A stretch of 64,000 nucleotides of DNA from Podarcis gaigeae (Eukaryota): NCBI GenBank assembly GCA_964106915.2, contig OZ066922.1; one strand, 5' to 3'. Positions 50,301 through 53,300 of this stretch are shown here, piece after piece (the stretch's first letter is position 1; the number at the start of each line of letters is the position of its first letter). Position numbers: made by a program.

Positions 50301-53300
50301 GGGCCATTCCATCTGCTTGCCCACTCTGTTCCTAGATGCCAACCAGCCAGCACTTCATTGCTGATTCTAGGAGGAGGATAGTAAAAACATCTATGGCTAT
50401 CTGGCTTGCTGCCACACTACAGTGCAAACCTTTTGGAGTTTGCATGAGGGCACCAACCTCTTTGAGTTTGTGCTGTGGAATGTATTATCCAAGTAATGTA
50501 ATCCAAGTGATGTAATATTGGGTAGCAGGACTGGCCCACCCATGAGGCAAGGTGAGGTCACTGCCTCAGGTGGCAGGACCCATAGGGTAGCAAATTCGGA
50601 TGCAGATCTTTACTCCCCACTTCTTCCTTTGTGGGGAGGGAGGTGCCTTTTGTGGTTTGCCCCAGGCACCAAAATGTCTTGAGCCAGCCTTATTGGGTAG
50701 TTTTTGCTGTCCGAAGTGAGAATCTGAGTTGTAATGCTTTTGTTCATTTCAAAGTTGTTCAGTACCACTCAGTGTGAGACACTGAACCGGTATAGATTAC
50801 AACCCTATGAGGGTGGGAGTCTAGATGGGAGTAGTTTTGTTGCTGGTTATATGACACTACATTGCCCTAGAATGAATGAGCTGGTCTCCCTCCTGTCTCA
50901 AGGCACCCACAGGCTACTGGAAGATGGGAGACAAAGGTTAATATTTCAATGGGTATGGTTGTCGCTAAAAAAGTAAATATATTGAAGTGACAGGAGGATG
51001 TCACAATTCTGTCATTTTGTTCCACTTTGTGAATTGTTTTGACAGAAAAACAGGCTACAAATCACTAAGCAAATAAATAACTTTTTGTGTGAACCTATTT
51101 CCTTACCAGCCAGACTGTATGGTAAATATTGTTGGCCACTGTGTGCCACCATGGAACCTGGCAACACCAGCATGGGTATTATTTGACCGATTCATGTATT
51201 CAGAGAAATTTTAGCTACTACTGTTACTGCATCAAGCAGCTGTTGTGGAGAAGTATTTCTCTGAATAGGAGGAACTGTGTCACACTTTTAACATTGTGTG
51301 TGTGTACGCGTGTGTGAAGAGAGAGACAGAAGGAGATGGAGCTGGTCTCTTCCAAGTCATGGTACATATACGGTTTTCTTTCCATCAATGGCTACTGGCT
51401 CTTTAAAGACTAAAGACAGAGGCCTTCCTATGCAACCTGACATGTGGCTGATACCTTGATCTATAAGAGGGATGGGAAACCTGTGGCTCTCTAGGTGTAG
51501 TTAAGACTACACCTAGCATGGCCAGTGGTGGAAGATTATGGGAGGGCCAGCTTCAATGGCATCTGGAGATTCAAGTCTATAAGAAACCATCTCACCAAAT
51601 GGCTCTCTACCTGCTTCTCTTCCCCCTCCAATAAGGCTGGCACAGATGAATCCTTTCCTCAACTAATTCCCTTAAACCAGGAAGGTTTCAGCTGCCCATC
51701 CAAAGTCATTCCACGGTGAAATACGTCGCACGTGGCCTCTGCCATGACACAAGCAGCTCAGCCAGCCCACTAAGCCGAGTCGAAATCATGGCTCCGAAGG
51801 TGTAGGCAGAGATCCTCAAAGCCTGGTTACCAGGAAAGATTATCATTATCACCATAGCATCCCTTGCATGCGTCTCCAGGTCCGCGCACGCGATGACCTC
51901 AATGCTGAGAAACAAGGCAGGAATTTGCAAGGGAGAGAGAGGTTGTTTATTCCACCTGAGAAAGCAAAGGAAAAAATGGGGGCGGTGGGGTGGAGGAAAG
52001 AGGAGACACCCAGGACACCCCCAACCCAGCACTGCGTCAGGGGCTTCCCTTACCAGGCTCGTGCTCGCCCGGGTTGTCGGAGAGCTCGATGACCAGCAGC
52101 TCCCGGCCCTCGGAGCTGCGGCCCACGGTGTAGATCCTGCTGATGGACGAGCACTGCAGCCACACCGAGACCATCGCCTCGCGCATCTCCGGGTAGCGGT
52201 GGTACTCGAAGGAGATGCCGTCCTCCTGGCTGAGGCGGCGACGCCGGTTCGCCGAGCCGCCGCCTGCCGCTTCGGGCTGCTCCGCCTCGGAGCCCTGCTG
52301 CCGCAAGGCGAAGGCGCCCAGCGCGCCGCAGAGCGCCGCCAGCAGCAGCGCCCAGAGCCCACCTCGCCGCGCCATGCCTGACGGAGAAGAAGGACGGGCG
52401 AGCGAGCGAGCGAGCGCGGCTGGCAATGCGCGCTTCTGCCTCTGCTTCTTCGCTCAGCTGCTGCCTTGACGTGCTGCGTCGACGCGGGCTGCGCTCCCTC
52501 TGCGCCCGCCTCCCCCTCCCGCAGGCGGAGAAACCTGCTCCGTCCAGGAAGAGCGCTCGCGCCGCAGCCTGCACTACTCGCGCCGCAGCCGCCGGGGGGA
52601 GACGCAAGGATGTACCACTGCCGCGCGCGGGGGATGCGAAGGTGTGACGTGCCGCCACGCGCGCGCGCGCGCGCCGCCCTGTCCACCTGGCAGCGCACAG
52701 GCGCCGCGATTGGCCAGGTGCGGGAGGGTGTGCCTCTCAGGACCCTCTGCACATGCTCCAAACCTCTCCATAGGATGAAGTGCATGTATGCCTGCCTACC
52801 AGAACGCGTGCCACCCTAGGAACCATATCCTAGAGGCCGAGGTCACTTTGACGCCACCCCCTACAATAAAATATTTGATCGATTATGCAGGACCCCCCTC
52901 CAATATTTATTCAGGTTGGCCATGCGTGCCACAATCAGGGTGCGACTGGGCTTTAACATCCCACAAGGTTCTGCTGCTTTCCCATGCTCAAAAATCACTG
53001 TTCGTTTCACATGTTTGTTGAGTAGTCAGCTATACAGCTGCAGATAAAACGTTTTAGGTGTGTTTTAAGTGCATTATACAAACGTGACACCAGATGGCGC
53101 TGGTAAGCTAATGCCAAATTACATACACAGTGGTACCTCGGGTTAAGTACTTAATTTGTTCTGGAGGCCTGTTCTTAACCCAGAACTGTTCCTAATCTGA
53201 AGCACCACTTTAGCTAATGGGGCCTCCTGCTGCCACCAGAGCACGATTTCTGTTCTCATCCTGAAGCAAAGTTCTTAACCCGAGGTACTATTTCTGGGTT

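What the first reader, a model, noticed from the sequence alone, without database searches (positions are those of the whole stretch)
51941..52567. Orphan CPE exon 1 is identical to the other copy over about 625 bp
Seen: no difference found by eye between 23270-23896 and 51941-52567 (5' UTR, CDS, donor, about 110 bp of intron) despite dense CpGs, while nearby intronic DNA differs by 2-4% and MSMO1 exons differ at 8 sites. A silenced, methylated fragment should have lost CpGs. Inference: the island has stayed unmethylated and is under constraint or gene conversion. It might also act as a distant alternative first exon spliced to CPE exon 2.
Basis: partly seen in the sequence, partly recalled or inferred. 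Interest (0 to 1): 0.7.

Follow-up and report, generated by a model that had tools for sequence, protein, structure and literature searches.

The report
Gene-conversion tract over duplicated CPE promoter
In a lizard genome, a 29-kb tandem duplication left a spare copy of the first exon and promoter of the carboxypeptidase E gene, and this spare copy has most likely been overwritten recently by its twin, which is an ordinary process in duplicated DNA.

Summary
The exact match is 633 bp (23264-23896 = 51935-52567). It sits in an ~820-bp block with 2 substitutions, inside a head-to-tail duplication (copy A 22589-51446, copy B 51447-64000+) whose other 10,336 aligned columns differ at 2.59%. The next-longest identical run is 341 bp. 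None of 20,000 random placements of the 330 differences reached 633 bp.

All 94 of 94 CpGs in the block are kept, against 94 of 135 outside. Non-CpG sites are also about 6-fold too similar, so lack of methylation alone does not explain the identity. Strong constraint is unlikely, because the same 5' leader differs from a Podarcis lilfordi gene model at 6-7 of 79 codons plus indels.

Best reading: a recent non-allelic gene-conversion tract coinciding with the CPE CpG-island promoter. This is a known kind of event.

Use as a distant first exon for CPE is untested and looks awkward. An intact MSMO1 copy and a second CPE exon 1 lie in between. Splicing into MSMO1-A exon 2 hits a stop after 13 codons.

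Read-level validation and orthologous DNA were out of reach.

The parts
51935..52567 (-). Exact 633-bp tract, copy B (distal, 'orphan'): 119 bp of intron 1, the donor, CPE exon 1 coding part and 192 bp of 5' leader or promoter. 70 CpGs, GC 0.69.
23264..23896 (-). Exact 633-bp tract, copy A (proximal to the rest of CPE). Offset to copy B is 28,671 bp.
51894..52718 (-). High-identity block, copy B (pairs with 23225-24042): 818 aligned columns, 2 substitutions, 3-4 small indels in (GA)n/(GC)n runs. Likely the widest extent of the converted tract.
23225..24042 (-). High-identity block, copy A.
52054..52375 (-). CPE exon 1 coding part, copy B: 107 codons plus 1 nt, ending in phase 1. Donor GT at 52053-52052. 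Residues 65-106 match the start of Pfam Peptidase_M14.
23383..23704 (-). CPE exon 1 coding part, copy A, identical to copy B.
52001..52860 (.). CpG island, copy B: 860 bp, GC 0.70, 100 CpGs, observed/expected 0.96 (whole window 0.35).
23321..24220 (.). CpG island, copy A: 900 bp, GC 0.70, 105 CpGs, observed/expected 0.96.
22589..51446 (-). Tandem duplication unit, copy A. 22589-44069 aligns to copy B; 44070-51446 has its partner beyond the window end. Holds CPE exon 1-A, about 10.2 kb of A-only insertions, MSMO1-A and its likely promoter.
51447..64000 (-). Tandem duplication unit, copy B, which runs off the window. The junction 51446/51447 is seamless, with no N and no repeat at the joint.
37660..43890 (-). 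MSMO1-A, five coding exons (43890-43636, 41225-41077, 40688-40562, 39358-39204, 37867-37660), open and with canonical splice sites.
57849..63822 (-). MSMO1-B, five coding exons (63822-63568, 61400-61252, 60862-60736, 59539-59385, 58056-57849). 8 differences from MSMO1-A: 5 synonymous, 3 replacement.
47681..48240 (.). Weaker CpG island (GC 0.57, observed/expected 0.76), about 3.8 kb upstream of the MSMO1-A ATG. Inferred to be the MSMO1-A promoter and first non-coding exon.
   Evidence: position only, inference
51946..51955 (-). Possible cryptic acceptor (exon start 51955) and an AATAAA hexamer (51951-51946), about 100 nt downstream of the exon 1 donor and present in both copies. The P. lilfordi model P0003 uses this acceptor.

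Best explanation
The window comes from a lacertid lizard, close to Podarcis but not P. lilfordi itself. A ~29-kb head-to-tail duplication copied the whole MSMO1 gene together with the CpG-island promoter, exon 1 and the first 0.6-0.8 kb of intron 1 of the downstream gene CPE.

The two units have since diverged by about 2.6% in substitutions and by many indels. Later, a non-allelic (interlocus) gene conversion copied about 0.63-0.82 kb from one CPE island onto the other, most plausibly during repair of a double-strand break in the island. This erased the differences there.

Selection on the working copy A, combined with such conversions, would keep the spare copy B intact whether or not B does anything.

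Shown: the duplication, the sharply bounded identical tract, its statistical excess, and the lack of strong between-species conservation of the leader. Inferred: conversion as the process, its link to recombination at CpG islands, and its direction (unknown).
For: 1. Tract against background. There are 2 substitutions in 818 columns inside the block and 268 in 10,336 outside. P(<=2 in 818 at 2.59%) = 1.2e-7 and P(0 in 633) = 6e-8. The longest-run test gives 0 of 20,000.

2. Sharp edges. The adjoining blocks are 3.6% and 5.6% diverged.

3. Not only CpG protection. About 630 non-CpG positions carry 2 differences where about 14 are expected at the outside non-CpG rate of about 2.2% (Poisson P about 1e-4; hand arithmetic).

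4. Not protein-level constraint. The MSMO1 copies, both under purifying selection (pN 3/712, pS 5/176), still differ at 2.8% of synonymous sites. The tract holds about 82 synonymous sites plus 311 non-coding bases. At 2.59% that predicts about 10 differences, and 0 are seen (P about 4e-5, hand arithmetic).

5. The leader is not strongly conserved between species. P. lilfordi model P0003 differs from copy A at 6 of 79 leader codons and from copy B at 7 of 79, plus a 9-nt indel and a frame-shifting repeat-length change. Three of these replacements and both indels lie inside the tract. Exon 1 itself has a 9-nt Ala-run indel. The two window copies are identical at all of them.

6. Such events are frequent in duplicated DNA (PMC10172114, passages read). 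High promoter similarity of recent segmental-duplication paralogues has been attributed to non-allelic conversion (PMC10100218, passages read). In a snake, crossovers overlap CpG-island or promoter-like features more than chance (PMC10369914, abstract and section 9 read).
Against: - There are only two sequences and one genome, with no orthologous DNA. The classical test could not be run: paralogues grouping by species inside the tract and by orthology outside it.
- The tract coincides almost exactly with the CpG island plus exon. That is also where constraint and a low mutation rate would be expected.
- The other long identical runs (307, 285 and 280 bp) overlap MSMO1 exons, so constraint does lengthen runs in this alignment.
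- At an exon-like rate of 0.9% applied to all 633 bp, P(0) is 3.3e-3. That is small but not negligible.
- The between-species yardstick is a translated gene model from an assembly polished with short reads (PMC10214862), not DNA.
- The link to recombination at CpG islands comes from a snake, not a lacertid.
Confidence: 0.65

Rival explanations
1. No conversion. Both islands are unmethylated in the germ line, so CpG decay is absent, and promoter, leader, exon and splice region are all under purifying selection in both copies because copy B is used.
For: The identity coincides with the CpG island and exon. 94 of 94 CpGs are kept. The exon 1 peptide is identical to the P. lilfordi model apart from a 3-residue indel. 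Long identical runs elsewhere overlap MSMO1 exons.
Against: Synonymous sites, 119 bp of intron and 192 bp of leader are all identical, while MSMO1 synonymous sites differ at 2.8%. The leader differs between species at 6-7 of 79 codons plus indels. Repeat runs such as (GAGC)n and the Ala run vary between species but not between the copies. Even at a 0.9% rate, P(0 in 633) = 3.3e-3.
Confidence: 0.12
2. Assembly or polishing artefact. True differences between the two GC-rich islands were erased by consensus or short-read polishing, or the whole duplication is a falsely duplicated haplotype.
For: This could not be tested, because no reads are available. GC-rich (0.69-0.80) islands are hard for several platforms. 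Polishing with short reads is used for lacertid assemblies (PMC10214862, methods passages). These are general considerations, not results about this window.
Against: - The copies keep private differences right at the tract edges: the (GA)n length, the 23897/52568 SNP and the (GC)n lengths.
- At the background rate about 16 differences would have to be erased within 633 bp while the flanks stayed at 3.6-5.6%. Reads carrying that many differences would map uniquely (inference).
- The window has no N and the junction is seamless.
- 2.6% divergence, 10.2 kb of copy-A-only sequence and a copy-A-only LINE are too much for alleles (inference).
Confidence: 0.1
3. Functional reading, compatible with conversion. 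Copy B is a working alternative promoter and first exon. It is spliced either to CPE exon 2 or into MSMO1-A, and is kept intact for that reason.
For: In copy B the island, ATG, signal-peptide coding part and donor are intact and identical to copy A. It lies on the same strand, upstream of MSMO1-A and of the rest of CPE. A P. lilfordi model (P0003) shows exon 1 spliced to a cryptic exon about 100 nt downstream, from an annotation that used RNA-seq and Iso-Seq (PMC10214862 passages).
Against: - To reach CPE exon 2, which is not in the window and is more than 52 kb away, transcription must cross an AATAAA 100 nt past the donor, the MSMO1-A promoter, the whole MSMO1-A gene with four AATAAA hexamers in its 3' region, and the CPE-A promoter.
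- Splicing into the inferred MSMO1-A exon 2 acceptor reads 13 codons and then a TGA one codon before the MSMO1 ATG.
- The cryptic exon in copy B gives a 34-residue tail and then stops.
- It cannot be told whether P0003 comes from an orphan copy. Exon-1-only CPE models are common annotation fragments (Varanus 112 aa, Gekko 112 aa, Sphaerodactylus 131 aa).
Confidence: 0.1

Closest known systems
Interlocus (non-allelic) gene conversion tracts in segmental duplications, as mapped in human duplications (PMC10172114; PMC3790853 and PMC4467073 seen in a search listing only)
   Same: Two paralogous copies on one chromosome, 28.7 kb apart. A short, sharply bounded tract is far more similar than its flanks, is GC-rich and overlaps an exon.
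   Different: This is inferred from a single assembly with two copies. There is no population or outgroup DNA, and donor and acceptor are unknown. The organism is a lacertid lizard.
Promoter similarity of recent segmental-duplication paralogues (PMC10100218)
   Same: The promoter and CpG island of a young tandem duplicate stay near-identical. Those authors name non-allelic conversion as a possible cause.
   Different: Here the gene body behind the spare promoter was not duplicated, so the promoter and exon are orphaned.
Recombination directed to CpG islands or promoter-like features in squamates (corn snake, PMC10369914)
   Same: This would explain why the tract sits on the island: breaks form there and are repaired from the paralogue.
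   Different: Shown for allelic crossovers in a snake. Nothing in this window measures recombination, so the link is inference.
Partial gene duplications that leave orphan 5' exons, and variable-first-exon loci (recalled from general knowledge, no call)
   Same: A duplicated promoter plus first exon lies upstream of a shared gene body.
   Different: No evidence of use. A complete unrelated gene (MSMO1-A) lies between the spare exon and the CPE body.

Membership tests
Interlocus gene conversion tract | Paralogous copies in the same genome | tested here: met
   Collinear head-to-tail duplication, A 22589-44069 against B 51447-64000, 11,154 aligned columns.
Interlocus gene conversion tract | A contiguous tract significantly more similar than the rest (longest-run test of the GENECONV type) | tested here: met
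   633-bp run against a next-longest of 341. 0 of 20,000 random placements reach it; analytic 1.6e-6. 2/818 against 268/10,336 substitutions, P = 1.2e-7.
Interlocus gene conversion tract | Similarity not explained by selective constraint | tested here: inconclusive
   Proxy only. The translated P. lilfordi model differs at 6-7 of 79 leader codons plus indels, and MSMO1 pS is 2.8% against 0 at about 82 synonymous sites of CPE exon 1. No orthologous DNA was available.
Interlocus gene conversion tract | Tree conflict: paralogues group by species inside the tract and by orthology outside | not testable with these tools
   No vertebrate genome collection is on hand (genome contigs holds bacteria and archaea only).
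Interlocus gene conversion tract | Sequence confirmed by copy-phased reads | not testable with these tools
   No reads.
CpG-island promoter | Length >= 500 bp, GC >= 0.55, CpG observed/expected >= 0.65 | tested here: met
   A: 900 bp, 0.70, 0.96. B: 860 bp, 0.70, 0.96. Whole window observed/expected 0.35.
CpG-island promoter | Unmethylated in the germ line; transcription start activity | not testable with these tools
   No methylation, CAGE or ATAC data. After a conversion, CpG retention is not informative.
Carboxypeptidase E (peptidase M14), exon 1 | Sequence similarity to CPE N-terminus and the start of the M14 domain | tested here: met
   Best named hits are carboxypeptidase E: P. lilfordi 97%, Varanus 76%. 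Pfam Peptidase_M14 26.4 bits (cut-off 21.6) at residues 65-106. Only exon 1 was searched.
Functional alternative first exon of CPE | Intact start codon and splice donor | tested here: met
   Identical to copy A.
Functional alternative first exon of CPE | Transcripts joining it to CPE exon 2 | not testable with these tools
   No RNA data. CPE exon 2 is not in the window.
Functional alternative first exon of CPE | No intervening gene or terminator between the exon and the shared body | tested here: not met
   MSMO1-A with an intact reading frame, poly(A) hexamers and CPE exon 1-A all lie between.
Tandem segmental duplication | Head-to-tail units with a defined junction | tested here: met
   Copy B starts at 51447 directly after copy A's end. 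There is no similarity between 49500-51446 and 1-22588, and about 4 bp (GCTG) is shared at the joint.

The most novel reading that the evidence does not exclude
The tract is the footprint of a recombination hotspot at a CpG island. In squamates, breaks directed to promoter-like features would be repaired from the paralogue, so promoters of tandem duplicates would evolve in concert while gene bodies and spacers diverge. An orphaned promoter and exon would then be kept 'alive' indefinitely by its selected twin. If this is general, tracts of paralogue identity could map PRDM9-independent hotspots from assemblies alone.
Probability: 0.2. Interest if true: 0.5.

Novelty: new member of a known kind. 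Interest (0 to 1): 0.3.

Why it matters
The finding is a clean, small example of concerted evolution confined to a promoter island. It shows how a spare first exon can look 'conserved' without being used. That is a warning for annotation, which may call a truncated CPE gene or a chimeric model here. It is also a warning against reading CpG retention as evidence of methylation state.

The locus also holds two apparently working MSMO1 genes in a lacertid.

None of this changes current understanding. The value is in correct annotation, and possibly as one data point on where non-allelic conversion starts in squamates.

Tried and rejected
- **Third copy or common repeat.** Self-BLAST lists only the two copies of the tract.
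- **CPE exon 2 in the window.** tblastn with Varanus CPE (P0004, 468 aa) hits only residues 20-112, at the two exon 1 copies.
- **KLHL2 exons in the spacer 44-51 kb.** tblastn with a fused KLHL2-MSMO1 fish model (P0133) hits only MSMO1 exons.
- **Duplication by unequal exchange between SINEs.** There is no repeat at the 51446/51447 joint, although a SINE-like repeat (22343-22588) abuts the left breakpoint.
- **Lacertid MSMO1 paralogues in the protein collection, to date the duplication.** 0 lacertids among 76 hits from 88 candidates. This is weak evidence only, because the search is word-based.
- **Other lacertid truncated CPE models.** Only P0003 among 89 hits and none among 55 hits.
- **In-frame CPE-MSMO1 fusion.** Rejected: a TGA lies one codon before the MSMO1 ATG in that frame.
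- **RNA genes.** 0 Rfam matches at gathering score in 44000-54000 and 0 tRNA genes in 22000-53000.
- **Literature on this locus.** 0 papers hold both 'Podarcis' and 'MSMO1'.
- **Not run.** The search step with a joined spliced model was left out. Exons were searched and compared one by one, and split codons were skipped in the synonymous/replacement count.
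Full report
**What is there**

The window is 64,000 bases with no N. All genes discussed here lie on the minus strand.

The translated exon at 52375-52054 (107 codons plus 1 nt, donor GT at 52053-52052) is the first coding exon of carboxypeptidase E. Its best named hit is 'carboxypeptidase E [Podarcis lilfordi]' (P0003, 97% identity over 100% of the query), followed by Varanus at 76%. Residues 65-106 match the start of Pfam Peptidase_M14 (26.4 bits, cut-off 21.6). The window therefore comes from a lacertid lizard close to, but not identical with, P. 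lilfordi.

Searches were made exon by exon. The step of joining exons into a spliced model was left out.

**The duplication**

Self-comparison shows a head-to-tail duplication. Copy A is 22589-44069 and is collinear with copy B, 51447-64000. Copy B starts directly where copy A's unit ends (51446/51447) and runs off the window, so the unit is about 28.9 kb in copy A.

The joint carries no repeat. Nothing in 49500-51446 resembles 1-22588. About 4 bp (GCTG) is shared at the joint.

Each unit holds, in transcription order:
- a complete MSMO1 gene with five coding exons, mapped with a Crotalus tigris MSMO1-like protein;
- an intergenic spacer;
- the CPE CpG island, exon 1 and 0.6-0.8 kb of intron 1.

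No other CPE exon is in the window: Varanus CPE hits only residues 20-112, at two places. The rest of CPE must lie beyond coordinate 1. Copy A is therefore the exon 1 next to the gene body. Copy B is separated from it by MSMO1-A and by exon 1-A, which is the sense in which it is 'orphan'. This assignment is inferred from gene order.

**Check of the observation**

It holds 119 bp of intron, the 322-nt coding part and 192 bp upstream of the ATG, with 70 CpGs and GC 0.69.

It lies in a block (23225-24042 / 51894-52718) of 818 aligned columns with 2 substitutions and a few length changes in (GA)n/(GC)n runs.

| Comparison | Aligned columns | Substitutions | Rate |
|---|---|---|---|
| High-identity block | 818 | 2 | 0.24% |
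| Other twelve blocks together | 10,336 | 268 | 2.59% (1.5-5.6% per block) |
| Neighbouring block, intron side | 445 | 16 | 3.6% |
| Neighbouring block, upstream side | 160 | 9 | 5.6% |

Statistical tests:
- P(<=2 of 818 at 2.59%) = 1.2e-7, and P(0 of 633) = 6e-8.
- The 297 identical runs have mean 36.6. The longest after 633 are 341, 307, 285 and 280.
- With 330 difference events placed at random over 11,214 columns, 0 of 20,000 trials reached 633 (mean longest 212, maximum 467); the analytic estimate is 1.6e-6.
- Sliding 633-column windows hold a median of 18 events (5th percentile 6), and only the island reaches 0.

**Is it only an unmethylated island?**

Both copies are strong CpG islands: A is 900 bp and B is 860 bp, each with GC 0.70 and observed/expected 0.96, against 0.35 for the whole window.

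Outside the block, 41 of 135 CpG dinucleotides present in either copy differ between the copies. Inside it, 0 of 94 differ. At the outside rate, 0 of 94 has a probability of about 1.6e-15 (hand arithmetic).

But the roughly 630 non-CpG positions of the block carry 2 differences where about 14 are expected (about 2.2% outside; Poisson P about 1e-4; hand arithmetic). Protection of CpGs alone is therefore not enough. If the tract was recently overwritten, CpG retention also says nothing about the methylation history of copy B.

**Is it constraint?**

Two yardsticks argue against strong constraint.

- **Synonymous sites.** The two MSMO1 copies differ at 8 coding sites, 5 synonymous and 3 replacement: pS = 5/176 = 2.8% and pN = 3/712 = 0.42% (counted per exon, split codons skipped, no difference lies in a split codon). 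Selected exons here still diverge at synonymous sites at the background rate. The tract has about 82 synonymous sites plus 311 non-coding bases. That predicts about 10 differences at 2.59%, and none is seen (P about 4e-5, hand arithmetic).
- **Between-species comparison.** The P. lilfordi model P0003 happens to translate the 5' leader in frame, which gives a rough between-species measure. Of 79 leader codons compared, 6 differ from copy A and 7 from copy B, and there is a 9-nt indel. A repeat-length change shifts the frame before the ATG, and exon 1 has a 9-nt Ala-run indel. Three of the replacements and these indels fall inside the exact tract, where the two window copies are identical. The leader therefore changes between species at a rate of at least 2.4% (6 of 237 nt as a minimum), about the paralogue background.

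Caveats:
- This is a translated model from an assembly polished with short reads (PMC10214862, methods passages read), not DNA.
- The tract coincides with the island and exon, where lower rates are expected.
- The other long runs overlap MSMO1 exons.
- At an exon-like 0.9% over all 633 bp, P(0) is 3.3e-3.

**Most likely mechanism**

The most likely mechanism is a non-allelic gene conversion of 0.63-0.82 kb between the two islands, long after the duplication. With 0 differences in 633 bp, the event is younger than about 18% of the duplication's age (95% bound, 3.0/16.4; hand arithmetic).

Its direction is unknown. At the one edge SNP (23897/52568), copy A shares the P. lilfordi state.

Conversion in duplicated DNA is frequent (PMC10172114, passages read). 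It has been offered as the cause of promoter similarity in young duplication paralogues (PMC10100218, passages read). In a snake, crossovers overlap CpG-island or promoter-like features beyond chance (PMC10369914, abstract and section 9 read). A break in the island repaired from the paralogue would place the tract where it is. That last link is inference.

**What copy B could do**

Nothing could be measured here. The anatomy is as follows.
- About 100 nt past the donor there is an AATAAA (51951) and a possible acceptor (exon start 51955). The P. lilfordi model uses this acceptor. In copy B it gives a 34-residue tail and then stops.
- Further on come a weaker CpG island (47681-48240, inferred MSMO1-A promoter), MSMO1-A with four AATAAA hexamers after its stop codon, and CPE exon 1-A.
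- Splicing exon 1-B (phase 1) to the inferred MSMO1-A exon 2 acceptor (43934) reads 13 codons and then a TGA, one codon before the MSMO1 ATG. No fusion protein results.

Use as a first exon for CPE is possible but would need read-through of a whole gene.

Whether P0003 reflects an orphan copy in P. lilfordi cannot be told. That annotation used RNA-seq and Iso-Seq (PMC10214862). However, exon-1-only CPE models are common fragments in other reptiles, and outside the tract copies A and B are closer to each other than either is to P0003 (1 against 2 and 3 differences in 20 residues).

**What stayed unchecked**

- The only genome collection open holds bacteria and archaea, and the two closed collections were not used.
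- Supplements of the papers were not seen. Those of PMC10214862 might list the gene model behind P0003.

**Verdict**

It is explained by a known process, so this is a new example of a known kind and of modest interest.

Noticed in passing
window 37660-43890 and 57849-63822 (minus strand): There are two complete MSMO1 genes. All five coding exons are open in both, with 8 differences (5 synonymous, 3 replacement: E/D, I/M, L/V) and pN/pS about 0.15. Both copies therefore look functional. No lacertid MSMO1 appeared among 76 protein hits.
   Followed up: partly
window 24043-36730 against 52719-56931: Insertions are strongly uneven. Copy A has 10,209 bp that do not align to copy B, and copy B has 1,318 bp that do not align to copy A. 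Almost all of it lies in the MSMO1-CPE spacer, so the CPE-A promoter sits about 12.8 kb from MSMO1-A while CPE-B sits about 4.3 kb from MSMO1-B.
   Followed up: partly
window 25597-28155 (minus strand): An open 853-codon LINE ORF2 (endonuclease plus reverse transcriptase; Pfam RVT_1 E = 5e-33, Exo_endo_phos E = 1e-15) is present only in copy A. It was therefore inserted after the duplication or lost from copy B. It looks like a BovB/RTE-type element, but that name is recalled and not tested.
   Followed up: partly
window 22343-22588: A CpG-rich SINE-like repeat ends exactly at the left breakpoint of the duplication (22588/22589). Other copies lie at 29849-30209, 32964-33319, 43023-43385, 44734-44973 and 45650-45857. 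ARAGORN calls no tRNA in it. Whether it played a part in the breakpoint is unknown.
   Followed up: partly
protein P0049 (Fukomys damarensis, named 'C-4 methylsterol oxidase', 312 aa): This public model joins the C-terminal part of MSMO1 to CPE exon 1. It is either a read-through or a mis-joined prediction. It also shows that the MSMO1-CPE neighbourhood holds in a mammal.
   Followed up: no
protein P0133 (Mugilogobius chulae, 828 aa): This public model fuses a BTB/kelch protein to MSMO1. It was used here only as a probe, and no kelch-type exon was found in the window.
   Followed up: no
window 23050-23224: A 175-bp segment in CPE intron 1 is present only in copy A, directly left of the high-identity block. 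The P. lilfordi model reads across this point without it, as copy B does.
   Followed up: partly
window 56195-56353: A 159-bp segment in copy B matches its own reverse complement at about 90% (a palindrome-like repeat), at a place where copy A has other sequence.
   Followed up: no
window 28560-28960 and 38260-38360: Long dinucleotide and tetranucleotide microsatellites of (TA/TG)n and (AC)n type are seen as repetitive ORF translations. They differ in length between the copies.
   Followed up: no
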